Below are positions 5,134-13,394 of a DNA stretch of 26,450 bases, piece after piece. A program made the position numbers and the translations under genes. This DNA comes from a virus (Duplodnaviria > Heunggongvirae > Uroviricota > Caudoviricetes), in the IMG/VR virus record IMGVR_UViG_3300035188_001315; one strand, given 5' to 3'. Within the stretch, counting starts at the first letter, position 1. Every line of letters starts with the position of its first letter. Under the pieces are notes generated by a model. The model saw only the letters and a list, made by a program, of their open reading frames with translations. It searched no databases and was not told the origin of the DNA.

Positions 5134-5643
5134 TTAATCAACCAAACTACGATCGCTGTTCGGATAGGTAGTTTTTTTCAATTTTGCTGGATCACCATAC
5201 ATGCCGCCAGGACCGTATTCGTCTTCTTCAGGTGATGTGACTTTACCCGAGATTTTTTCTTTTGGAGCTAAACTAACCACTAAATCTTTTCCAAATCGAT
5301 CCTTAAATTCTTTACCTGCTGCAATACACCAATCAGTATATTTTGATTTTGAAATACTATCTACAAATAATTTAAAATAGTCATATGGATGATCCCACCA
5401 GGTAGTATCTTCATCACTATTTCTTTTTGATAATCTAACAACATCTATTTTTTTAACATCAAGATACATCTCTGCTTTATTGACATTTATTCCCAGACAA
5501 CGAGATTGAATAAATGATTCCACTTGTTTTTGATCAAATCCTGCAATTGCTTTTGAAAGTTGTGCTTGTGATAAAACCACTTTGTATTGTGTCTTAGCAG
5601 CATCAACTGCTTTAGCTTCAACCAATAATTCTCTAACTAACAT
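5134..5643 (-). CDS. hypothetical protein, candidate late head-packaged protein
   Basis: 169-aa ORF, RBS GGAG, N-terminus MLVRELLVEAK. Confidence 0.8.
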   Translation of the reverse strand: MLVRELLVEAKAVDAAKTQYKVVLSQAQLSKAIAGFDQKQVESFIQSRCLGINVNKAEMYLDVKKIDVVRLSKRNSDEDTTWWDHPYDYFKLFVDSISKSKYTDWCIAAGKEFKDRFGKDLVVSLAPKEKISGKVTSPEEDEYGPGGMYGDPAKLKKTTYPNSDRSLVD

Positions 5644-5701
5644 AAATGTTCTCCGTTTTGTTATTTTTTAAATTCAATTATATTTATTCGGTGTGGTCAA
5701 T

Positions 5702-5729
5702 AAAAAAGGGATTTTAAATTCCCTTTTTT
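5702..5729. terminator. intrinsic terminator
   Basis: AAAAAAGGGA-TTTTAAAT-TCCCTTTTTT. Confidence 0.8.
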
Positions 5730-5741
5730 AAATTTAGTTTC

Positions 5742-6032
5742 TTAAAACACTCTAACCGTTAAACCTTTATAGAATGTTGTTAAACGACCGTAAGGTTGTT
5801 GTGCAGGTTTAAAAGATTCACTCTTGACCACAAATTGTAAATCGGGGTATTTTTTTGAAATCTTTTTAGAAATCTTTTTAACGTGTTTTGGTTTCACATC
5901 AAAAATTCCAGCAAATTTATATCTACGTTCAAACGTTTTACGTTTATCGTTAAATACTCTACGTGGTTCTTTACCAGTAACTTTAACCACGATTTCTTTT
6001 AAATCCAATGTAAGTTGTAATGATGTAGTCAT
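5742..6032 (-). CDS. basic hypothetical protein
   Basis: 96-aa Lys/Arg-rich ORF, RBS GGAG. Confidence 0.8.
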   Translation of the reverse strand: MTTSLQLTLDLKEIVVKVTGKEPRRVFNDKRKTFERRYKFAGIFDVKPKHVKKISKKISKKYPDLQFVVKSESFKPAQQPYGRLTTFYKGLTVRVF

Positions 6033-6084
6033 GTTGGATCTCCAAATAATTAACAGTTGATGATTAATTTCTTACTATGGGTTT

Positions 6085-6113
6085 ATTATAATAGATTATA
6101 GGTCAATTGTCAA
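6085..6113 (-). promoter_or_regulatory. sigma70 promoter
   Basis: TTGACA-17-TATAAT; leader CCATAGTAAGAAA shared with the tRNA-operon promoters. Confidence 0.85.
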
Positions 6114-6149
6114 GATATTTTGAAGAAAAAAAATGGGTTACTTTTTATT

Positions 6150-6410
6150 ATTCTGTGAGTATCCCACAACACAGTTTGCCCTGCTATTTGCTATCGTACT
6201 TTCAGATAGTCCCAAGTCTCCAATTCACAGGTGTCGGGCCATTACCGGTGTTAGCTAACCTAACCTTTTTGATAGTCATTTAACACTATCAAAAAAGTAA
6301 TCTACGGTTGACAATCTAAATATTTACCAAGGGGCATAATCGATATAGCCTCTAGCATCCTCGGAAGGATCAACTCTAACTGTGTTCAAGATTACTTTTG
6401 TGATAGTGTC
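6150..6410 (-). ncRNA. putative structured ncRNA, unknown family
   Basis: No ORF, GC-enriched; 20-bp IR 6284-6303/6389-6408; 11-bp hairpin 6266-6276/6285-6295; 9-bp long-range helix 6168-6176/6378-6386. Confidence 0.55.
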
Positions 6411-6467
6411 ATGTCCCCCTGTTATTTGTACTAGTTGTCAATATGGTTAAACTGAAAAACTACCATG

Positions 6468-6746
6468 TTAAAACTCATAATATTCGTCTATGATTTCACC
6501 TGAAACAGTTTCTGCAATACCCCGATAAAAACTCATAGCTGTTTCACCTAATTTAACAGTATGACCAGCTTGTAATTCAAACCGATAAATTTCCTGTGGA
6601 TCACCACCATAACTAACTTCTATTCGTAACCCGTCAACTCCAGGATCAGTGTAACCAACATATTTAAATGAATACTTGTAATAACTTTCAAAGGACACCA
6701 CAACATCAGCATACTTTTCGATAAATTCTTCTTCACTTAATTCCAT
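6468..6746 (-). CDS. acidic hypothetical protein
   Basis: 92-aa ORF, RBS GGAG; YYKYSF and GG-x4-IYRF pattern. Confidence 0.85.
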   Translation of the reverse strand: MELSEEEFIEKYADVVVSFESYYKYSFKYVGYTDPGVDGLRIEVSYGGDPQEIYRFELQAGHTVKLGETAMSFYRGIAETVSGEIIDEYYEF

Positions 6747-6862
6747 ATCATCTCCATGAGTTTGTGATACTATTTGATTAATATGCTTGTCTATTCCAAG
6801 CAGTCACTAATCGGGTAAGATTAGAATTCTCTAGGTCTACTAAAAACAGAATACCTGTTAAT

Positions 6863-7058
6863 TTGATAGTTACTGGTACTGATCTCCAGTTTACGTTCTT
6901 GCGTCTTTATACTCGACGAATAGTGCGTGGTTTCCAACCGTTGTGGCTCACGGCACGTCCACGTTAAACCTTTTCCAATACGTTATCCGATAGCATAACT
7001 CCACTGGCTACCGTGTCGTTTAAAGATATGTGTATCAGCCTACACAATCAACTATCAA
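6863..7058 (-). ncRNA. putative ncRNA module 3 of repeated family
   Basis: Terminal stem TTGATAGTT/AACTATCAA; 5' hairpin TGTGT-AGGCTGAT-ACACA; 3' GTAAACTGGAGATCAGT. Confidence 0.65.
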
Positions 7059-7238
7059 TAGATACACTTATTTGAATTCCTTATACTGTAGTACAATTTC
7101 CTCGACCTAAGTACATCTATTCATAGTGTTTGTCTTTCCAAGCCACGCATTATTTTTTGTGCATTAAGGCTGTCCGCATAACTACATTTGCCACTTTTGG
7201 ATGGTAGTGCTTCCATTTTACAGTAACCTCAACCCTAA

Positions 7239-7481
7239 TCAGTTGGGTTGTAATTTTGTGTGTTTTTGATATAATGTGACGACTTCATTATGTGCTTCTT
7301 GAAACGCATCACCATGTGTATCAACCATTGTCATTTTTTCTGGTGCATGAACTGCATTATACATAGCTTGAGTTATTCCTCGAATTCTACCCAGAATTTC
7401 ATTTTTAAATTCAAAGTTTAAATCGCTACTGTTAAACATATTAAAAATGTCATCAGATATATATCTTGTTTCTATTTTCAT
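7239..7481 (-). CDS. hypothetical protein
   Basis: 80-aa ORF between ncRNA modules. Confidence 0.7.
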   Translation of the reverse strand: MKIETRYISDDIFNMFNSSDLNFEFKNEILGRIRGITQAMYNAVHAPEKMTMVDTHGDAFQEAHNEVVTLYQKHTKLQPN

Positions 7482-7509
7482 ATTATAATCTCATTGGTGT
7501 TTAAAATTG

Positions 7510-7622
7510 TTGATAGTTGCTGACACTGATCTCCAGTTTACTGCGTCTTGACACTTAACTGTTGGTCCACCCTCCCAGCACATCCCACACTGTACGTATC
7601 AACCCACGCATCTAACTATCAA
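7510..7622 (-). ncRNA. putative ncRNA module 2 of repeated family
   Basis: Terminal stem TTGATAGTT/AACTATCAA; hairpin TGCGT-GGGTTGAT-ACGTA; 3' GTAAACTGGAGATCAGT. Confidence 0.65.
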
Positions 7623-7692
7623 TGATAATACCAGGCTTCGGAACTCAAACCCGCATGATTTAAAAGATGTGCTTCACCTAGTATTATCATTG

Positions 7693-7820
7693 ATAGTGCT
7701 TATCTTTACAAGATGTCAGACACTGTCTAACACTGATCGCCGCTATTACCTACGTTGTGAGCCTTTGTGCAATTCATCTCACTGTTTCCACGATGCGTAT
7801 CATCTTACGCATCTAACTAT
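7693..7820 (-). ncRNA. putative ncRNA module 1 of repeated family
   Basis: ATAGT/ACTAT ends; hairpin GATGCGT-AAGATGAT-ACGCATC; 3' GGCGATCAGT. Confidence 0.6.
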
Positions 7821-7831
7821 TAAGTCATAAC

Positions 7832-7887
7832 AACCGACTAGGTTCGTTTACAGTTTCACGACAAACCGACCTAGTTCGTTTACAGTT
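7832..7887. repeat. 24-nt direct repeat, two copies 32 nt apart
   Basis: Minus strand AACTGTAAACGAAC-(TAG/CTA)-GTCGGTT at 7864-7887 and 7832-7855. Confidence 0.9.
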
Positions 7888-7982
7888 GTTATGCTTCATA
7901 GTGCTTGTCTTTCCAAGCTGCCATTCAAAATGATATTTTGAAATATAGGAAGAATACTTAACTTCTTCTCTATGGTATTACT

Positions 7983-8011
7983 ATTATACAACTAAAAATT
8001 AACATTTACAA
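7983..8011 (-). promoter_or_regulatory. sigma70 promoter heading the ncRNA array
   Basis: TTGTAA-17-TATAAT. Confidence 0.7.
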
Positions 8012-8052
8012 ATTAATTCTTTTTAAGTTAACCAGGTTATTCAATATTGATC

Positions 8053-8394
8053 CTACCACCAATATCGACGTTTTGGTTTTTTTATAATTTCAACCTCAAA
8101 ATCATCATCTCTCAAACATTGTCGAATTTGATTTTTTGCATCTCGACGATAAGGTCTCTGCGAATATAAATTATGAAACCATCCAGGACCTTTAACTATC
8201 CAAGCACCACGTTTTTTATCTGACCGTATTCGAGCTATTCGTTTTTTATATTCATCACTGGATTTATCGATTAAAACACGATACTCATTAAACCGAAAAT
8301 CTAAGTTTGGAACCCACGTATACAAAATATTTCTACTTCTTAATATATGCTGGGCTTTTTTAAATCTATAAGTTCTGCTCATTATTTTCTCCAT
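8053..8394 (-). CDS. basic hypothetical protein (MSRTYR...PGWF...RRD...RYWW type)
   Basis: 113-aa Arg/Lys-rich ORF. Confidence 0.8.
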   Translation of the reverse strand: MEKIMSRTYRFKKAQHILRSRNILYTWVPNLDFRFNEYRVLIDKSSDEYKKRIARIRSDKKRGAWIVKGPGWFHNLYSQRPYRRDAKNQIRQCLRDDDFEVEIIKKPKRRYWW

Positions 8395-8456
8395 TAGATA
8401 AATTATCTAATGAAAAAATACCTTTTTATTTTTCATATCAACCTCTAAATATTTTT

Positions 8457-8534
8457 TGGAGGAACTGGTCGGATTCGAACCGACGGCTTTAAGATTTTGC
8501 AGATCCTTCTATTGGGCCTCTCTAGCACAGTTCC
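8457..8534 (-). tRNA. tRNA-Cys(GCA)
   Basis: Cloverleaf, loop CTGCAAA, U73, encoded CCA. Confidence 0.92.
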
Positions 8535-8550
8535 AAACAATTTTTAATGT

Positions 8551-8625
8551 TGGTATCCCTGGAAGGAATCGAACCTCCATCATAACGTTCGTAGCGTTGT
8601 ATTCTATCCGTTAAACTACAGGGAC
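8551..8625 (-). tRNA. tRNA-Arg(ACG)
   Basis: Cloverleaf, loop CTACGAA, CCA. Confidence 0.9.
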
Positions 8626-8627
8626 TT

Positions 8628-8864
8628 CTATTTTAAATCAAACCTATAATTTTGTCTGCTGTATGAAGCATGGTAATTGACACCATTGATCCAGTAAGGA
8701 TCAGTTACTAAACCATCATTGTGCACTCGGTTCGATAATGTTTGTATATCGTAAGTTTTGTTATCGACAATAGTTTGATTTGCCCATGAAGTATCATATT
8801 CTAAATCTACTACATATTTTTGATAAATTGACATTGATGCCTGAATTGCGGAAATATTATGCAT
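8628..8864 (-). CDS. hypothetical protein
   Basis: 78-aa ORF, RBS AGAGGTG; ends just before tRNA-Arg. Confidence 0.7.
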   Translation of the reverse strand: MHNISAIQASMSIYQKYVVDLEYDTSWANQTIVDNKTYDIQTLSNRVHNDGLVTDPYWINGVNYHASYSRQNYRFDLK

Positions 8865-8889
8865 AAAATCACCTCTTTACTTTTTTATT

Positions 8890-9255
8890 CTAATCCCTAG
8901 TGTTGTTAATCTCATTGTTTACCACCTGATAAACATTAACAGTTTTACCAATTTTAATTGCGCACTTGGTTGCATCTAAGGTTTCTCGAGATTTTTTATC
9001 CCAAAATGCAACAACAATATCGGCATTATCTATAATAGTTCTGTTTCTGATAGGTCCTGCAGCTTTACCAAACTTTTTCCAATCCGGTTTAAATATAGTA
9101 ACCGGAATAGCATTTAATTTTGTGAATTTCTCAGCAATACTATCAACACCTCGGGCACCACCTGAAATAACTTCTTTAATCTGATATTTCTTTAGGACAT
9201 CAAAAATCAAATCCTGATCAGTTATTTCTCTTGAACCAATCACTGCAACTTTCAT
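8890..9255 (-). CDS. YspA-related SLOG family protein (DUF2493-like)
   Basis: VAVIGSR, VISGGARGVD and GKAAGPIRN...VVAFWD motifs; RBS GGAGG. Confidence 0.85.
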   Translation of the reverse strand: MKVAVIGSREITDQDLIFDVLKKYQIKEVISGGARGVDSIAEKFTKLNAIPVTIFKPDWKKFGKAAGPIRNRTIIDNADIVVAFWDKKSRETLDATKCAIKIGKTVNVYQVVNNEINNTRD

Positions 9256-9388
9256 ATCTTTCCTCCATATAATGTGGTTTTAATTTTATTTATTATTCAC
9301 TGAAGGTAAGTATATAATTAGAGTGTTGTTCACAACGTAAAAAACCTTGCCAGTGAACAAAAAGTCTCACATGCAAGGCCGTGTTATT

Positions 9389-9475
9389 TGGTGCCTTGGG
9401 CCGGAGTCGAACCGGCACGTTCTTTCGAACGAGGGATTTTAAGTCCCTTGCGTCTACCAATTTCGCCACCAAGGC
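9389..9475 (-). tRNA. tRNA-Leu(TAA)
   Basis: Cloverleaf with long variable arm, loop CTTAAAA, CCA. Confidence 0.95.
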
Positions 9476-9487
9476 AAATTATTTAAT

Positions 9488-9664
9488 TTACCATCTATTA
9501 TTAGTATTTGGCGGTCCAGATTCATTTATCAAAACTACAAATGATACCAACAACACAAAACCAAATACTAAAAAAGCGGGGAGAAATACTTCCCACCATG
9601 AAAAATTTATTATATCAAATATTTTTAATATAACCAACACACATTGAAATGATGATATAATCAT
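9488..9664 (-). CDS. 58-aa two-TM membrane protein (not in ORF track)
   Basis: MIISSFQCVLVILKIFDIINFSWWEVFLPAFLVFGF...; LKx4IxFSWWxVFxP motif; RBS AAGGG. Confidence 0.75.
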   Translation of the reverse strand: MIISSFQCVLVILKIFDIINFSWWEVFLPAFLVFGFVLLVSFVVLINESGPPNTNNRW

Positions 9665-9709
9665 ATTTTTTCCCTTTCAAACATGAAATTCAACTTCGGT
9701 TTATTTATG

Positions 9710-9785
9710 TGGCAGGCCAGGTAGGACTCGAACCTACAACCATCGGTTTTGGAGACCGACATTCTACCAATTGAACTACTGACCT
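9710..9785 (-). tRNA. tRNA-Trp(CCA)
   Basis: Cloverleaf, loop CTCCAAA, CCA. Confidence 0.93.
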
Positions 9786-9807
9786 ATTATACTGTAATAC
9801 ACTAATT

Positions 9808-9884
9808 TGGTGCCCCAAGTAGGACTTGAACCTACAACCTACCGATGGTGAGTCGTGTGCTCTAACCAATTGAGCTACCAAGGT
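9808..9884 (-). pseudogene. degenerate tRNA, anticodon CAC
   Basis: Intact D and T arms and CCA; acceptor has A-C plus four G-U pairs; anticodon stem has two mismatches; loop CTCACCA. Confidence 0.7.
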
Positions 9885-9899
9885 GTTACTACTACTTAA

Positions 9900-9976
9900 T
9901 GGCGAAGAGGACGGGGCTCGAACCCGCGACCATTTGCGTGACAGGCAAATATTCTAACCAACTGAACTACCTCTCC
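9900..9976 (-). tRNA. tRNA-Asp(GTC)
   Basis: Cloverleaf, loop CTGTCAC, G73, CCA. Confidence 0.95.
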
Positions 9977-9983
9977 AATTATT

Positions 9984-10059
9984 TGGTGACTCCTATGTGA
10001 TTCGAACACATGCAACACAGATTAAAAATCTGTTGCTCTACCAGCTGAGCTAAGGAATC
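9984..10059 (-). tRNA. tRNA-Lys(TTT) copy B
   Basis: Cloverleaf, loop TTTTTAA, CCA. Confidence 0.92.
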
Positions 10060-10868
10060 GTTTTTCTTAAATCTTCTAATTTTAAAACATCAAGATGATG
10101 AATAATATCTTTATCAATAATCAAAAGCACATGTGGAAATTGATTCCATTTTGCTTTATCTCTTTCTGTCTTGTAACCTTTAACTTCCAGATAAAGATTA
10201 TGTTCTTCTAAAAAGAAATCAGGGAAATAGTTTTTATTCTTACCTTCCCACACATAAGGAAATGGCCCATCTTCATGAATCCATTTTAATCCTTGAGAAT
10301 CCAACCATTGTGCTGTCTTTAATTCCCAACTACCTTTAAGCTTAACACCATTATATTCACCGTGTTTTACTCTACCACAAACATTATTCTTTGTGTAGGA
10401 TTCAGGATTTTTCTCAACAGCTTTCAGCATAGATTCAGAAAGTTTCTTTTTACTTTCTTTAGACCAAACTTGTTTTTTGCTGTTTTCAGAAATCTTCTTG
10501 CGAGTTTCTTCAGAAATCTCTGGATCTGGTAGACCTAATTCTCTAGCTTTAAGATATTGATTTGATGCTCTACCACTTTCTTTCAACTTACGCATTGCAT
10601 CATAGTAAGCATCTGTTTTTGGTTTTAATTGTATTGTTTGTCTATTTGGATTATGCTTGCATAATCTCTCATGTTGGATAAATGAATTTTTGTTCTTCCA
10701 TTCCTTACCACAAAAAGTACATTTCAAATCTTCAGGAACAACCCAGTTCCGCTGAAAAACTTTACCATTTTGAATTGCTAAACAAATCTTTGAGTTTTTG
10801 TGTCTATCAATGTTGTTTGAAGTAATATCAGAACCACACAATTCACATTTAACCGTTCTTCTTTTCAT
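10050..10868 (-). CDS. free-standing homing endonuclease (Zn fingers + NUMOD3-like + PD-(D/E)xK)
   Basis: CELCG and CTFCG..HERLC Zn fingers; SEETRKKISE repeats; YFPDFFL...YLEVKGY nuclease motif. Confidence 0.85.
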   Translation of the reverse strand: MKRRTVKCELCGSDITSNNIDRHKNSKICLAIQNGKVFQRNWVVPEDLKCTFCGKEWKNKNSFIQHERLCKHNPNRQTIQLKPKTDAYYDAMRKLKESGRASNQYLKARELGLPDPEISEETRKKISENSKKQVWSKESKKKLSESMLKAVEKNPESYTKNNVCGRVKHGEYNGVKLKGSWELKTAQWLDSQGLKWIHEDGPFPYVWEGKNKNYFPDFFLEEHNLYLEVKGYKTERDKAKWNQFPHVLLIIDKDIIHHLDVLKLEDLRKTIP

Positions 10869-10921
10869 TTTAAATACCCACTCTTTTAGAGTAATTATAC
10901 AATAAATTGATGGAATTCAAA

Positions 10922-10933
10922 TGTTTAAAGAGC
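10922..10933 (-). promoter_or_regulatory. boxA-like antitermination element
   Basis: GCTCTTTAAACA just 3' of a tRNA. Confidence 0.55.
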
Positions 10934-10943
10934 TTTTAGTAAC

Positions 10944-11020
10944 TGGTCCCCCGTGTCCGATTCGAACGGACGATCAACAAATTATGAGTTTGCTGGCATA
11001 GACCGCTTGCCCAACGGGGG
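10944..11020 (-). tRNA. tRNA(CAT), Ile2 or elongator Met
   Basis: Loop CTCATAA, C4-G69, A73, CCA; no initiator G-C triplet. Confidence 0.88.
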
Positions 11021-11071
11021 TTTTAACCGTTTCTTGATAATATTTTAACTATCAAGCCTATTAACTATTTG

Positions 11072-11144
11072 TATCAATGGTAGGATTTGCACCTACGACA
11101 TAACGAATATGAATCGTTTGCTCTACCAACTGAGCTACATTGAT
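11072..11144 (-). tRNA. tRNA-Met(CAT), atypical
   Basis: Perfect stems, loop TTCATAT, T loop TGCAAAT, no encoded CCA. Confidence 0.75.
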
Positions 11145-11150
11145 ATTATT

Positions 11151-11234
11151 TGGTGCTCTTGGGGAGATTTGAACTCCCAAGGATTTCTCCAGTGGTTTCT
11201 AAGACCACCGTGTATGCCGTTCCACCACAAGAGC
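11151..11234 (-). tRNA. tRNA-Leu(TAG)
   Basis: Cloverleaf, long variable arm, loop CTTAGAA, CCA. Confidence 0.93.
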
Positions 11235-11253
11235 ATATACTTCTTTACATATT

Positions 11254-11330
11254 TGGCGTCGCTACGGGGAATCGAACCCAACGATTACAAGGATGAAAAC
11301 CTTGTGTCCTAACCACTAGACGATAGCGAC
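11254..11330 (-). tRNA. tRNA-Glu(TTC)
   Basis: Loop TTTTCAT, CCA; irregular T stem. Confidence 0.85.
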
Positions 11331-11345
11331 AAATTCTTATTTAAT

Positions 11346-11374
11346 TGGAGCGTCTAACTACATCATTCTAACGC
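11346..11374 (-). pseudogene. tRNA-Gly-type acceptor minihelix remnant
   Basis: GCGTTAG-AATGATGTAG-TTAGACGC-T-CCA. Confidence 0.45.
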
Positions 11375-11435
11375 TACTTTATTATTTTTATTTTCTTAAA
11401 ATTATACAATTTTTTTGTAAAATAACTTAAAAAAA

Positions 11436-11443
11436 TATAAATA
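11436..11443 (+). promoter_or_regulatory. T4-type late promoter motif
   Basis: TATAAATA upstream of the only complete plus-strand gene. Confidence 0.55.
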
Positions 11444-11559
11444 ATAAAGTGAAAGGTAATTAAAATAACTACCAATTATTTTAAAACAGTTAGAGAATTA
11501 ACCGATGTCCCTTTCAACAAATCTAATTATACAATAAAAAAAATCATAAGGAGAATATT

Positions 11560-12402
11560 ATGAAAACAATCTCAAGAATTTGCTCATGTACTATTTGTAA
11601 AAAACAATTTTCAATTAAAGGTTTTCACTCTCATTACATTTCAGCTCATACCATCAAAGGTAACTTAATGAGAAAGAAATGTGGTGCTTTAGGTTTAGAA
11701 AAAGCAATAAAAACTAGTAATTTAAAAAAAGAGCAAAGAATACAACTTTATCTTAAAAATCCTAAATTATGTAAATGTTGTAACAACCCATTACCTTACG
11801 AAAAAACCAAAAATAAGTTTTGTTCATCTACCTGTTCCGCATCTTTCACAAATAAGGAAAGATTTGAAAATGGTTACAGAGTTTCTGCCGCTCATAAAGA
11901 AAAAATTCGTAAAACTTGGGATACAAAACAGTCCAACAAACCAGAATTTACAAAAATTTCTACTTGCATAATTTGTAATAAATTCCATCCAAAAAGTGGA
12001 AAAACATGTTCTAAAAATTGTCAAGATGTTTTATTCAAACAATCATTTACTAAAACTATGGAATCTGGTTACAACCCACAACAAAATAGAAATAGAAGCA
12101 TTCCATCTCATCTTGAAAAATCATTTAAAAATTGGTGTAAAAACAATTTCCCAAACGTACTCTTTTCTCAAAACAAAGCATTCAACTGTAATGGAAAAAT
12201 GTACTATGGTGATTTTTATTTTGATTCTTTAAAAATACTAATTGAATTAGATGGAACTCAACACAAAGAAACAGTTGAATACGACAAACTACGTGATGAC
12301 AACATTTTAAAATACTACAATGTCTACACAATTAGGATTTCTCATAAGGAATTTATCAAAAAATCAAAAGTTGAATTTATCAACAATATTCTTAGTCTTT
12401 AA
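11560..12402 (+). CDS. free-standing homing endonuclease (Zn fingers + DUF559/Vsr-like nuclease), antisense to the tRNA operon
   Basis: CTICK..HYISAH, CKCC..CSSTC and CIIC..CSKNC; YYGDFYF...LIELDGTQH...YDKLRD; RBS AAGGAG. Confidence 0.87.
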   Translation: MKTISRICSCTICKKQFSIKGFHSHYISAHTIKGNLMRKKCGALGLEKAIKTSNLKKEQRIQLYLKNPKLCKCCNNPLPYEKTKNKFCSSTCSASFTNKERFENGYRVSAAHKEKIRKTWDTKQSNKPEFTKISTCIICNKFHPKSGKTCSKNCQDVLFKQSFTKTMESGYNPQQNRNRSIPSHLEKSFKNWCKNNFPNVLFSQNKAFNCNGKMYYGDFYFDSLKILIELDGTQHKETVEYDKLRDDNILKYYNVYTIRISHKEFIKKSKVEFINNILSL

Positions 12403-12416
12403 TCATAGTAGAAGTG

Positions 12417-12488
12417 AGAATCACACGGGATTTGAACCCGTAACAATTGTTTGGAAGACAATTATGTTACCATTAACACCAGTGATTC
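12417..12488 (-). tRNA. tRNA with Gly(TCC) anticodon, 17-bp extended acceptor stem, no CCA
   Basis: Loop CTTCCAA, normal D and T arms; perfect IR 12408-12424/12482-12498. Confidence 0.75.
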
Positions 12489-12511
12489 TCACTTCTACCA
12501 CATTTTTTATT

Positions 12512-12587
12512 TGGCTGGCTAGGTAGGGCTCGAACCTACGACAGAGTGATTAACAGTCACTTGATCTACCAACTGATCTACTAGCCA
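12512..12587 (-). tRNA. tRNA-Asn(GTT)
   Basis: Cloverleaf, loop CTGTTAA, G73, CCA. Confidence 0.95.
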
Positions 12588-12588
12588 T

Positions 12589-12699
12589 TTATTTAATACG
12601 ACTTTGTTTATTAATATGTGTTTGCTCAATTTCACGTAGCTGAGCTTGTTTTGCATTAGCAGAATGTCTGCCAGATATGTAATAGTCTGTAGTTTTCAT
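12589..12699 (-). pseudogene. 36-aa ORF, possible homing-endonuclease N-terminal remnant
   Basis: MKTTDYYISGRHSANAKQAQLREIEQTHINKQSRIK; no RBS. Confidence 0.35.
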
Positions 12700-12708
12700 A
12701 TCAATGTT

Positions 12709-12785
12709 TGGTCTCCCATGACAAATTCGAATTGCCAACCTATCCACCCCAAACGGATCGCTCTACCAGGCTGAGCTAATGGGAG
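12709..12785 (-). tRNA. tRNA-Pro(TGG)
   Basis: Cloverleaf, loop TTTGGGG, CCA. Confidence 0.9.
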
Positions 12786-12811
12786 TAGTTAATTTGTTAA
12801 CTAATGTGTGT

Positions 12812-12839
12812 ATTATACATTAAATTTTGTATAAGTCAA
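12812..12839 (-). promoter_or_regulatory. internal sigma70 promoter
   Basis: TTGACT-16-TATAAT. Confidence 0.7.
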
Positions 12840-12863
12840 ACACTAATTAAATCATTTTTTATA

Positions 12864-12951
12864 TGGCGAAGAATATAAGATTCGAACTTATGATACATTT
12901 CCATATGCTCCCTTAGCAGGGGAGTGCTTTCAACCCCTCAGCCAATTCTTC
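12864..12951 (-). tRNA. tRNA-Ser(GCT)
   Basis: Long variable arm, loop CTGCTAA, G73, CCA. Confidence 0.93.
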
Positions 12952-12960
12952 TATTTAATA

Positions 12961-13035
12961 TGGAGCCTCTTCCCAGAATCGAACTGAGATCTAAAGATTA
13001 CAAGTCAATTGTAATAACCATTATACTAAAGAGGC
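12961..13035 (-). tRNA. tRNA-Thr(TGT)
   Basis: Loop CTTGTAA, CCA; two U-U mismatches in the anticodon stem. Confidence 0.85.
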
Positions 13036-13063
13036 AATAACTATTATTTAAACACTTGATATT

Positions 13064-13138
13064 TGGTGACTCCTGATGGATTCGAACCATCTTCATCTCA
13101 TTAAAAGTGAGAGGTTTTTCCAATTAAGCTAAGGAATC
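13064..13138 (-). tRNA. tRNA-Lys(TTT) copy A
   Basis: Cloverleaf, loop CTTTTAA, CCA. Confidence 0.92.
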
Positions 13139-13155
13139 ATATTTTCATAATTATT

Positions 13156-13241
13156 TGGTGGTTAGGGTTGGATTCGAACCAACGAAGCACAGAGGCGGCG
13201 GATTTACAGTCCGCTGGAATTAACCACTCTCCCACCTAACC
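13156..13241 (-). tRNA. tRNA-Tyr(GTA)
   Basis: Long variable arm, loop CTGTAAA, CCA. Confidence 0.95.
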
Positions 13242-13249
13242 AGGTTATT

Positions 13250-13394
13250 TGGTTTGTAATTCTCTACAGGATTTGAACCTGTGTTGTCTAAGAATGTCTT
13301 ACTATACCCATATTGAAAATGAAAATTTTCAGTAGGAATTGAACCTACAGTAACTATTATTCCTTTGTTCTACCAATTGAACTAAGAGAATTAC
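13250..13394 (-). ncRNA. 145-nt tRNA-like RNA with two T arms and no anticodon loop
   Basis: Acceptor GTAATTCTCT/AGAGAATTAC, D arm GTTC-AATTGGTA-GAAC, T arms GTAGG-TTCAATT-CCTAC and ACAGG-TTCAAAT-CCTGT, ends AAACCA. Confidence 0.7.

What the first reader, a model, noticed from the sequence alone, without database searches (positions are those of the whole stretch)
6781..7922. Array of related pseudoknot ncRNA modules with conserved flanking hairpins (candidate new RNA system)
Seen (minus strand), three times in series: (i) hairpin CTTG-(G/T)AAAGA-(C/T)AA(G/A)-CACTAT at 7898-7918, 7693-7712 and 7123-7143, with variants at 6781-6801, 6920-6939 and 7204-7223; (ii) a spacer closed by a 9-16-bp inverted repeat of different sequence each time (7826-7834/7885-7893, 7620-7635/7677-7692, 7057-7070/7108-7121); (iii) a core that starts ATAGTT, has a hairpin with an 8-nt loop ending TGAT, a variable middle, and GG(A/C)GATCAGT near the end. 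Cores 2 and 3 share GTAAACTGGAGATCAGT exactly. The hairpin stems differ in sequence yet keep pairing (GATGCGT/ACGCATC, TGCGT/ACGTA, TGTGT/ACACA). Loop TGAT is complementary to the distal ATCA, a potential pseudoknot. ATAGT can pair with either the upstream or the downstream ACTAT. The array has its own promoter (7983-8011) and lies next to the tRNA operon. Established: T4 has stable non-tRNA RNAs of unknown function in its tRNA cluster, and GOLLD/ROOL RNAs and theta ribozymes occur near phage tRNAs; I could match none of these. Inference: a processed family of phage RNAs (ribozyme, protein sponge, or guide scaffold with variable cargo).
Basis: partly seen in the sequence, partly recalled or inferred. 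Interest (0 to 1): 0.9.

Follow-up and report, generated by a model that had tools for sequence, protein, structure and literature searches.

The report
Phage array of scaffolded small RNAs
The stretch is a real tandem array of folded non-coding RNA modules in a freshwater phage; their conserved core belongs to a very widespread but uncurated phage and prophage small-RNA family, whose only studied member is sRNA-17 of E. coli K1.

Summary
On the minus strand, three modules (plus one decayed copy) follow a sigma-70-type promoter. Each module has a hairpin H (CUUG-GAAAGA-CAAG, then CACUAU), a 17-21-bp "pedestal" helix with a variable tip, and a core.

The core is a frame. A closing helix P1 is followed by AAU and hairpin a (loop RRGYUGAU). 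A variable insert follows, then hairpin b (loop AGAUCAGYR) stacked directly on P1. The two loops are complementary.

The system is not entirely new.
- H occurs in 98 IMG/VR contigs.
- The frame also occurs in cultured Xanthomonas and Stenotrophomonas phages beside their tRNA genes, and in E. coli prophages.
- In E. coli it is the published 193-nt sRNA-17, which I confirmed from the paper's primers.
- The Rfam family STnc100/PasD has the same frame plan but does not score.
- Nothing in Rfam matches the window.

Most likely reading: a polycistronic early transcript is processed into stable scaffolded small RNAs, and the variable inserts and pedestal tips carry the specificity. Function is unproven.

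Rivals are a cis-acting leader (antitermination or stability) and tRNA mimicry.

This scan had already met the E. coli member on other DNA.

The parts
7983..8011 (-). Sigma-70-type promoter-like site, TTGTAA-17-TATAAT, heading the array
   Evidence: 10 of 12 consensus positions. The scan as a whole is not above its shuffles (17 found, 13.6 expected), so this is a consensus match only.
7898..7917 (-). H1: hairpin CUUG-GAAAGA-CAAG followed by CACUAU
   Evidence: Exact pattern match. The same 20-mer occurs in 98 IMG/VR contigs, nearly always after GACAG.
7816..7902 (-). Pedestal helix 1 (arms 7885-7902 and 7816-7834) with cargo 1, which holds an internal 24-nt direct repeat
   Evidence: (D7, I9).
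7711..7824 (-). Frame (core) 1. Hairpin a is at 7792-7813 with loop AAGAUGAU. GGCGAUCAGUG at 7731-7741 is single-stranded, with no hairpin b. Hairpin GUUAGAC-AGU-GUCUGAC is at 7715-7731. Divergent copy.
   Evidence: R1 scores 45.3 bits, but this sequence was in the model's seed.
7693..7712 (-). H2: CUUG-UAAAGA-UAAG followed by CACUAU
7615..7697 (-). Pedestal helix 2 (21 nt per arm, 95% complementary) with cargo 2, which holds a T-arm-like hairpin CGGGUUUGAGUUCCG
   Evidence: I3. The cargo is 83% identical over 59 nt to an unannotated stretch of Xanthomonas phage Kintu. It is also shared with L070 (cluster 10).
7504..7624 (-). Frame (core) 2. P1 is 7614-7622 with 7510-7518, hairpin a is 7593-7610, hairpin b is 7520-7536, and the insert is about 56 nt.
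   Evidence: R1 scores 83.1 bits, as a seed member. Pair counts; coordinates.
7239..7481 (-). 80-aa ORF directly behind module 2 (context; no family found)
7150..7223 (-). Decayed fourth module: degenerate H (7204-7223), ACUAC/GUAGU stem and a remnant of the frame start (7159-7185)
   Evidence: Reading. No model hit.
7123..7142 (-). H3: CUUG-GAAAGA-CAAA followed by CACUAU
7051..7127 (-). Pedestal helix 3 (20 nt per arm, 85% complementary, with G-U pairs) with cargo 3
   Evidence: I4.
6857..7060 (-). Frame (core) 3. P1 is 7050-7058 with 6863-6871, hairpin a is 7029-7046 (loop AGGCUGAU), hairpin b is 6872-6890 (ACUGG-AGAUCAGUA-CCAGU). The 138-nt insert holds a nested H-like hairpin plus CACUAU at 6920-6939.
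   Evidence: R1 scores 78.3 bits, as a seed member..
6781..6800 (-). H4 variant CUUG-GAAUAGA-CAAG followed by CAUAU, 35 nt before the 92-aa ORF 6468-6746

Best explanation
The stretch is a tandem array of non-coding RNA modules. It is transcribed on the minus strand from a host-type early promoter, as part of a polycistronic RNA that also carries two small ORFs.

Each module has two RNA-presenting devices:
- **Pedestal.** A long helix whose base is always ACUAU(C/G)AA paired with UUGAUAGU. It is preceded by hairpin H and carries a variable tip.
- **Frame.** P1, then AAU, then hairpin a, a variable insert, and hairpin b stacked directly on the 3' strand of P1. The loops of a and b pair with each other (GYUGAU with AUCAGY).

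The frame is a member of a very large phage and prophage small-RNA family, whose one studied member is the 193-nt sRNA-17 of an E. coli K1 prophage. The Hfq-bound prophage sRNAs STnc100/PasD share its plan.

**Proposed mechanism (inferred, not shown):**
1. The pedestal forms first during transcription and holds the 5' strand of P1.
2. A double-strand-specific nuclease, RNase III by the size of the helix, cuts the pedestal and frees the tip RNA.
3. UUGAUAGUU then pairs with the downstream AACUAUCAA and closes the frame.
4. The closed, loop-locked frames are stable small RNAs. Their variable inserts act in trans, either by base pairing or by imitating parts of tRNA.

**Shown:** the structures, their conservation and covariation, the family membership, and that the E. 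coli member is a discrete expressed RNA.
**Inferred:** the processing order, the nuclease, and the trans action.
For: **RNA on the minus strand**
- In 58 unique pedestals from related phages, G-U pairs outnumber A-C mismatches 88 to 19.
- Pedestals keep 16-26 paired positions while positions 9-16 take 21 different sequences.

**Frame structure**
- In 20 sequences, 96% of cells are paired and 12 of 24 pairs show changes on both sides. None of 500 shuffles reaches this, and slid controls give 25-50% paired.
- P1 is 6-29 bp and has dozens of unrelated but complementary sequences.

**Spread**
- H occurs in 98 viral contigs.
- The model gives 96 hits.
- Cultured phages Kintu, SOVA965, S72 and CUB19 carry the frame beside their tRNA genes.

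**Known member**
- Model R1, whose seed alignment (window, freshwater contigs, Kintu) holds no enterobacterial sequence, scores the E. coli O157 and mEp460 copies at 68.9 and 68.4 bits.
- The sRNA-17 primers in PMC7719688 are the start of that frame and its terminator. RACE gave 193 nt and a Northern blot was positive.
- In E. coli the frame starts about 5 nt after a promoter and is followed by a terminator.

**Same plan in STnc100**, a family described as Hfq-dependent, with variable seed regions.

**Modularity**
- The same pedestal cargo is joined to different cores in different contigs.
- Inserts range from 12 to 166 nt. They include T-arm-like hairpins, an aragorn-called tRNA and a hammerhead-like motif.

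**Competing pairings**
- The minimum-energy fold forms H, the pedestals and hairpin a, and leaves P1 open. This is what a processing-dependent closure predicts.
Against:
- No terminator-like site lies on the minus strand in 5600-8700. The window's modules therefore differ from sRNA-17 and STnc100, which end at terminators.
- The loop-loop pairing shows no compensatory change, only G-C to G-U. The conserved loops could instead bind a protein or a target.
- A 6-bp contact between two 4-5-bp hairpins on one junction may be strained, so it could form between molecules instead.
- No antisense target was found in the window (2 11-mer matches, about 2 expected).
- The trans effects reported for sRNA-17 are modest. 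The strongest changes, in the downstream genes yfdP and yfdR, may be polar effects of removing its terminator.
- Module 1 lacks hairpin b.
Confidence: 0.45

Rival explanations
1. Cis-acting leader elements. The frames, with H or a boxA-like element in front, act on the transcribing polymerase or on the transcript that carries them. They would give processive antitermination or protection from Rho (in the manner of HK022 put or lambda nut), or they would stabilise and punctuate the polycistronic RNA in front of the small ORFs and the untranslated tRNA genes.
For: - In the E. coli O157 prophage the frame starts about 5 nt after the early-left promoter, where putL or nutL would lie. A terminator follows it, no N-like gene is present, and 530 nt of non-coding RNA precede the first early gene.
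- Terminator-like sites within 90 nt downstream occur in 36 of 167 unique frames, against 7 of 167 control stretches.
- A boxA-like UGCUCUUU lies at a fixed distance before P1 in 18 of 167 frames, against 7 of 797 control windows.
- H resembles a boxB-type hairpin. This is my own comparison and was not tested.
- In the window the modules sit between a promoter and ORFs with no terminator.
Against: - In the lysogen, sRNA-17 ends at its terminator as a discrete 193-nt RNA. Removing the locus raises the downstream genes, the opposite of what loss of an antiterminator predicts.
- R1 finds nothing in the HK022 immunity region.
- Three modules in series, and inserts of up to 166 nt, are not expected of a polymerase-binding element.
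- Only 8 of 167 frames have a promoter-like site within 120 nt upstream.
- The boxA-like motif is confined to one sub-lineage that shares the same P1.
Confidence: 0.2
2. tRNA mimicry. Frames and pedestal tips imitate tRNA or its parts. They would act as decoys or competitors for tRNA-binding host factors (anticodon nucleases of defence systems, processing or modification enzymes), supplementing the phage's own tRNA set.
For: - The frame has cloverleaf topology. P1 is most often 7-9 bp. Then come a 3-nt linker, a 4-bp arm with an 8-nt loop, a variable middle, and a 5-bp arm directly continuous with the 3' strand of P1, with an arm-to-arm loop contact.
- Some pedestal tips score as tRNA: Rfam tRNA at 35.5 and 32.4 bits in L044, and aragorn calls with odd anticodon loops.
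- T-arm-like GGUUCGAnUCC hairpins occur in inserts and flanks.
- The arrays lie beside tRNA genes in the window and in Kintu, CUB19, S72 and SOVA965.
Against: - Neither aragorn nor the Rfam tRNA model reports the window's frames or cargos.
- P1 length is not fixed (6-29 bp), and no consistent CCA follows it.
- Most related loci have no tRNA gene nearby.
- Minimal frames with a 12-nt insert have no anticodon-arm equivalent.
Confidence: 0.15
3. Self-assembling RNA. The complementary loops a and b pair between molecules, or between successive modules, to build dimers or rings, as in phi29 pRNA or the ROOL and GOLLD cages. The inserts and tips would be displayed on the outside.
For: - A conserved 4-6-nt complementarity between two loops sits on short hairpins that share one junction. 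Fully paired loop-loop helices are normally coaxial, which favours pairing in trans. This is an inference from known kissing complexes.
- The modules are tandem copies.
- They lie near phage tRNA genes, as ROOL and GOLLD do.
Against:
- No Rfam match to ROOL, GOLLD or pRNA.
- The frames are small (70-200 nt).
- sRNA-17 was reported as an ordinary sRNA.
Confidence: 0.07
4. A DNA-level element (recombination site, packaging or replication signal, or phage promoter), or a self-cleaving ribozyme.
For: - A 20-25-nt block (GACAG plus H plus CACTAT) is nearly invariant across otherwise different contigs, and modules are reshuffled at ACTATCAA/TTGATAGT.
- One related frame carries a hammerhead-like insert (28.2 bits, below the cut-off).
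Against: - The strand-specific excess of G-U (88 to 19) and the compensatory changes argue for RNA.
- The spacing of TTGGAA and CACTAT (7 nt) does not fit a sigma-70 promoter.
- No ribozyme family matches the window at E up to 10.
- The junctions hold few conserved unpaired nucleotides.
Confidence: 0.05

Closest known systems
sRNA-17 of E. coli K1 RS218 (Sun et al. 2020, Front Microbiol 11:574833, PMC7719688), in an mEp460-type prophage
   Same: Same frame: P1, AAU, hairpin a with loop AGGCUGAU, a variable insert, and hairpin b with loop AGAUCAGCA abutting P1. It scores 68.9 bits with a model built from the window, freshwater contigs and Kintu. Phage-borne and made from an early promoter.
   Different: - sRNA-17 is a single gene with its own promoter and terminator (193 nt). 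It has no H hairpin and no pedestal in front of the frame, and P1 is GUUGUGGUG/CACCACAAC.
- The window has three frames in tandem, without terminators. Each sits behind H and a pedestal whose 3' strand doubles as the 5' strand of P1.
- The paper described neither the fold nor the family.
STnc100 (Rfam RF02076) and PasD, prophage sRNAs of enterobacteria found bound to Hfq
   Same: Same plan and junction letters: an 8-bp P1 ending GGUG, AAU, a 5-bp hairpin, variable hairpins, a CCGGG...CCCGG hairpin directly followed by CACCA..., and a conserved scaffold with variable regions.
   Different: - The Rfam model does not score the window or the sRNA-17 locus.
- R1 gives STnc100 copies only 11-18 bits.
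- The loops differ (UGUGCGG and AGGCA), and I saw no obvious complementarity between them.
- STnc100 ends at a terminator.
RNase III processing helices of polycistronic phage and rRNA transcripts (T7 early sites, rRNA flanking stems)
   Same: Helices of 16-26 paired positions that enclose a functional RNA and separate units of one long transcript.
   Different: Here the base of every helix has a fixed sequence, it is preceded by a conserved hairpin H, and its 3' strand can pair with a second partner instead. Cleavage was not tested.
HK022 putL/putR antiterminator RNAs
   Same: About 70 nt, two stem-loops, lying directly after an early promoter, with no protein partner. The E. coli member sits exactly where putL would.
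   Different: No sequence or model similarity. put has no closing helix and no variable insert. The sRNA-17 deletion data point away from antitermination.
tRNA and tRNA-like stable RNAs of phages (T4 species 1 and 2 RNAs, bacterial YrlA)
   Same: Cloverleaf-like order of helices, neighbourhood of tRNA genes, and T-arm-like hairpins in cargos.
   Different: - R1 does not match T4 rnaC or rnaD.
- I did not look for the GNCGAA motif of YrlA or for a Ro60 gene. Rfam gave no Y-RNA hit.
- A Watson-Crick loop contact replaces the elbow.

Membership tests
sRNA-17-type frame RNA (no Rfam accession; defined here from alignments A1 and A2) | Closing helix P1 whose two strands covary | tested here: met
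   UUGAUAGUU pairs with AACUAUCAA in modules 2 and 3. Across the family P1 takes many unrelated complementary sequences. In the window's own sub-family both strands are invariant, so support comes from relatives.
sRNA-17-type frame RNA | AAU-type linker, then a 4-5-bp hairpin a with an 8-nt loop RRGYUGAU | tested here: met
   All three modules have it (loops AAGAUGAU, GGGUUGAU, AGGCUGAU). The stems covary, and 100% of cells are paired in helix 2.
sRNA-17-type frame RNA | 5-bp hairpin b with a loop holding (A/U)UCAG(C/U), directly abutting the 3' strand of P1 | tested here: met
   Met in modules 2 (CUGG/UCAG) and 3 (ACUGG/CCAGU). Not met in module 1, where GAUCAGU is not in a hairpin.
sRNA-17-type frame RNA | Significant covariance-model score linking it to independent members | tested here: met
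   R1 (seed: window, freshwater contigs, Kintu) scores E. coli sRNA-17 at 68.9 bits, SOVA965 at 67.1, and gives 96 hits in other loci. The window's own scores are by construction.
sRNA-17-type frame RNA | Discrete transcript ending at an intrinsic terminator | tested here: not met
   No terminator-like site lies on the minus strand in 5600-8700. Transcript ends could not be examined.
STnc100 (RF02076) | Rfam model score at or above the gathering score (47 bits) | tested here: not met
   No match in the window at gathering score, nor at E up to 10 in 6500-8300. The same model finds 21 matches (E at most 0.001; 12 over the cut-off) in an E. coli O157 chromosome.
STnc100 (RF02076) | Frame plan: P1, AAU, hairpin, variable hairpins, CCGG-type hairpin abutting P1 | tested here: met
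   Compared with the Rfam consensus printed.
STnc100 (RF02076) | Hfq binding and base-pairing seeds | not testable with these tools
   Known for PasD and STnc100 from RIL-seq, as cited. No data for the window.
tRNA (RF00005) | Detected by aragorn or by the Rfam tRNA model | tested here: not met
   Neither reports anything in 6781-7922. Some cargos of related loci do score (35.5 and 32.4 bits).
HK022 put RNA | Similarity to putL or putR, and antitermination activity | tested here: not met
   R1 finds nothing in HK022 22000-31000 at E up to 1. Activity is not testable here.
GOLLD, ROOL, theta/HDV-like and other ribozymes (Rfam) | Rfam model match | tested here: not met
   Only chance-level matches (mir-283 and snoRNA models, E above 1) in 6500-8300.

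The most novel reading that the evidence does not exclude
The window shows one end of a modular RNA cassette system of phages. Frames and pedestals would be standard holders, joined at a fixed 8-nt joint (ACUAUCAA/UUGAUAGU) that serves both as a recombination point in DNA and as a switchable helix in RNA. Phages would exchange diverse payloads through it, including tRNA mimics, ribozymes and seeds. The loop-locked or self-assembling frames would deliver these payloads as decoys against host tRNA-targeting or RNA-targeting defences.
Probability: 0.12. Interest if true: 0.85.

Novelty: new variant of a known kind. Interest (0 to 1): 0.6.

Why it matters
One RNA fold links three things that had not been connected:
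- a jumbo phage of lake methanotrophs,
- cultured Xanthomonas and Stenotrophomonas phages,
- prophages found in many E. coli genomes.

In all of these it is unannotated and absent from Rfam. Its one studied member was treated as an isolated E. coli sRNA.

Recognising the shared frame would give genome annotation a new, large RNA family. It also suggests that STnc100, PasD and sRNA-17 are variants of one scaffold. Cultured systems exist (Kintu, CUB19, SOVA965, mEp460 lysogens) in which to ask what the scaffold does.

The window adds an unusual arrangement: tandem modules in which a processing helix competes with the scaffold's own closing helix.

Tried and rejected
- **Rfam.** The whole window at gathering score and 6500-8300 at E up to 10 gave nothing relevant. 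The same held for related loci.
- **Megablast against cultured phages.** No match.
- **Exact 17-mer GTAAACTGGAGATCAGT in viral contigs.** Two hits, both inside a coding region, so chance.
- **Genome collection scan for H.** Four hits. Only the Methylococcaceae MAG contig carries a real module.
- **Conserved neighbouring protein.** None is shared by the loci. Neighbours vary: primase-helicase, terminase, HNH endonuclease, repressor, lysis genes.
- **T4 species 1 and 2 RNAs.** No model match.
- **HK022 put region.** No model match.
- **E. coli K-12 CPS-53.** No copy.
- **YrlA/Y RNA idea.** Dropped after reading PMC4201824; I ran no motif or Ro60 search.
- **Literature search for the conserved strings.** No paper holds them.
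- **Antisense targets of inserts and cargos within the window.** At chance level.
- **H as a promoter.** The hexamer spacing does not fit.
- **Promoter statistics around frames.** Not informative (8 of 167 against 3 in controls).
- **Strand statistics of neighbouring ORFs.** Unreliable, because my ORF calling was crude in GC-rich loci.
- **The look-up of sequencing runs.** Closed.
- **Type B core.** The second core type seen in relatives (ACGCGCAUAGCGCACC...GAAAUAGGAGAC) was only described, not modelled.
Full report
**What is in the window**

Everything described here is on the minus strand.

- A sigma-70-type site (TTGTAA-17-TATAAT, 8011-7983) is followed by three modules, at 7917-7711, 7712-7504 and 7142-6857.
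- The remnant of a fourth module lies at about 7223-7150.
- A lone H-type hairpin lies at 6800-6781, in front of the 92-aa ORF.
- An 80-aa ORF (7481-7239) lies between modules 2 and 3. Neither ORF has a family.
- No terminator-like site lies on this strand between 8700 and 5600. The modules and ORFs are therefore probably one transcript.
- Eighteen to nineteen tRNA genes follow upstream on the same strand, at 8457-13391.

**Checking the observation**

- The 20-nt H pattern matches three times, against none in shuffles.
- The inverted repeats are real and longer than reported, because they continue from ACUAU/AUAGU (I3 and I4).
- The hairpin with the 8-nt loop ending UGAU covaries among the three copies.
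- In modules 2 and 3 the distal GAUCAGU sits in the loop of a second hairpin.
- The array folds much better than shuffles (z = -5.1).

**The pedestal and H**

H plus CACUAU is present in 98 IMG/VR contigs and is almost always preceded by GACAG. In these contigs it is followed by a helix that starts ACUAU(C/G)AA, ends UUGAUAGU, and encloses very different sequences.

- Among 58 unique examples, G-U pairs outnumber A-C mismatches 88 to 19 on the H strand.
- The helices keep 16-26 paired positions, while positions 9-16 take 21 different sequences.
- About twenty cargo classes of 62-185 nt exist.
- Some cargos are tRNA-like: Rfam tRNA at 35.5 and 32.4 bits, and aragorn calls with an 8-nt anticodon loop or a reduced D arm.
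- Cargo 2 of the window is 83% identical over 59 nt to an unannotated stretch of Xanthomonas phage Kintu.
- H-like hairpins with other stems (CCUCG/CGAGG, CCUG/CAGG, CCG/CGG) and the loop GAAAGA or GAACAGA stand before cores in a few GC-rich contigs. H is therefore an RNA hairpin, not only a DNA word.

**The frame**

I aligned 20 cores (A1). The alignment gives this order:
1. P1
2. AAU
3. hairpin a, with a 4-bp stem and loop AGGCUGAU
4. an insert
5. hairpin b, with a 5-bp stem and loop AGAUCAGCA
6. the 3' strand of P1, with no spacer

Pair counts on A1 give 96% paired cells and 12 of 24 pairs with changes on both sides. No shuffle reaches this, and slid controls give 25-50%. The loop-loop helix is 94% paired but shows only G-C to G-U changes, so it is consistent with pairing but unproven.

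Among these, P1 ranges from 6 to 29 bp with many unrelated complementary sequences, and inserts range from 12 to 166 nt.

Model R1 finds:
- the frame in Kintu (80.5 bits), SOVA965 (67.1), S72 (38.1) and CUB19 (26.1), always in the non-coding stretch just before the tRNA genes;
- 96 hits in further loci.

**The known member**

A frequent variant of the frame is present in E. coli prophages. Of 5426 complete genomes, 105 hold at least 80% of a 261-nt query and 1777 hold some part of it. It is unannotated everywhere. It also occurs in Stx2c phages, mEp460 and others.

In an O157:H7 prophage the order along the strand is:
1. the repressor gene
2. a terminator
3. a promoter flanked by operator-like repeats
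4. the frame, about 5 nt after the expected start
5. a terminator
6. a further long hairpin
7. the early-left genes

Earlier notes of this scan named this RNA as sRNA-17 of E. coli K1. I checked this against the paper.
- Its 'full length' primers are the first 33 nt of the frame and the reverse complement of the terminator.
- RACE gave 193 nt and a Northern blot was positive.
- The authors found no Rfam homologue.

The same notes pointed to STnc100.
- The Rfam model does not score the sRNA-17 locus or the window.
- The STnc100 consensus nevertheless has the same plan and the same junction letters...UGGUG AAU hairpin ... CCGGG-AGGCA-CCCGG CACCA....
- R1 gives STnc100 copies weak scores of 11-18 bits.

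I therefore treat STnc100/PasD as relatives by architecture, not as the same family.

**How it most likely works**

In the window's sub-family, UUGAUAGU can pair in two ways. It can pair upstream, as the 3' strand of the pedestal, or downstream, as the 5' strand of P1. The upstream pairing is supported by the covarying extension of the helix. The downstream pairing is supported by the family-wide covariation of P1, and by the conserved AACUAUCAA even where no further pedestal follows (modules 2 and 3).

The pedestal is much the stronger helix and is transcribed first. The minimum-energy fold leaves P1 open.

The simplest reconciliation is ordered maturation:
1. A double-strand nuclease cuts the two-turn pedestal. 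RNase III is the obvious candidate from helix length.
2. This releases the tip RNA.
3. P1 closes, giving a compact frame RNA.

By analogy with sRNA-17 and STnc100/PasD, such RNAs would act in trans through their variable parts. I put this at 0.45, because nothing about transcripts, nucleases or targets could be tested here.

**Rivals**

- **Cis-acting leader (0.2).** This fits the position of the E. coli member after the early-left promoter, the enrichment of terminators just downstream (36 of 167 against 7 of 167) and a boxA-like motif in one sub-lineage (18 of 167 against 7 of 797). However, loss of the sRNA-17 locus raises the downstream genes rather than lowering them. Tandem copies and large inserts also do not fit.
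- **tRNA mimicry (0.15).** This fits the cloverleaf-like order of helices, the tRNA-like cargos and the neighbourhood. However, the window's own RNAs are not recognised as tRNA, and P1 length is not fixed.
- **Self-assembly through the loops (0.07).** This is geometrically attractive but untested.
- **DNA-level or ribozyme readings (0.05).** The strand-specific G-U excess and the lack of any ribozyme match argue against these.

**Novelty and context**

Other notes of this scan say the window comes from a large uncultured freshwater phage of methanotrophs. That agrees with the only genuine genome hit, a Methylococcaceae MAG contig.

The frame family is partly known: one member has been published and one related family is in Rfam. 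Earlier agents of this scan had already met the E. coli member on other DNA.

What is new here:
- the link to environmental and Xanthomonas-group phages;
- a definition of the frame backed by covariation;
- the tandem arrangement of H, pedestal and frame, with competing helices.

Noticed in passing
L237:3630-3850 (minus strand): A frame of the same family carries a hammerhead-like motif in its variable insert (CUGAUGA...GAAAC; Rfam Hammerhead_HH9 at 28.2 bits, E 5e-5, below the cut-off) and is followed by a terminator.
   Followed up: partly
L322:3255-3345: In the E. coli O157 prophage, a 15-bp-stem hairpin follows the sRNA-17 terminator. Its tip contains GGGCUCAUAACCC, the anticodon arm of initiator tRNA. 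Earlier notes of this scan describe it. It resembles the window's pedestals.
   Followed up: no
L003-L100, for example L058:5451-5560 in the H-plus orientation: A second core type ('type B') follows the pedestal in many contigs. It starts ACGCGCAUAGCGCACC, holds GAAAUAGGAGACUUGGGA and a UGAAAGUAC-loop hairpin, and is closed by UGAUAGUA/UACUAUUG. Part of it also occurs as the insert of some type A frames.
   Followed up: partly
window 13250-13394 (minus strand): The Rfam tRNA model gives a weak extra hit at 13324-13391 (35 bits) that aragorn does not call. A first-reader note on this window describes a 'twin-elbow' tRNA-like RNA here, at the head of the tRNA genes.
   Followed up: no
window 10050-10868 (minus) and 11560-12402 (plus): Endonuclease-type ORFs lie among the tRNA genes: a PHROG endonuclease family, and a DUF559-domain ORF on the opposite strand. 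They are probably homing endonucleases.
   Followed up: no
window 8890-9255 (minus strand): A YspA/SLOG-family (DprA-like) 121-aa ORF lies between tRNA genes.
   Followed up: no
L130:500-620 and L128: Directly after the frame, two T-arm-like hairpins (GCGGGUUCGAUUCCCGC and GCGGUUCGAUUCCGU) follow one another, without aragorn calling a tRNA.
   Followed up: no
L023, L054, L068 and L088 (3' flanks of the frames): The 3' strand of P1 (AACUAUCA) runs straight on as the 5' strand of the next pedestal, with no H between. A chain of modules could therefore switch between 'all pedestals closed' and 'all frames closed'.
   Followed up: partly
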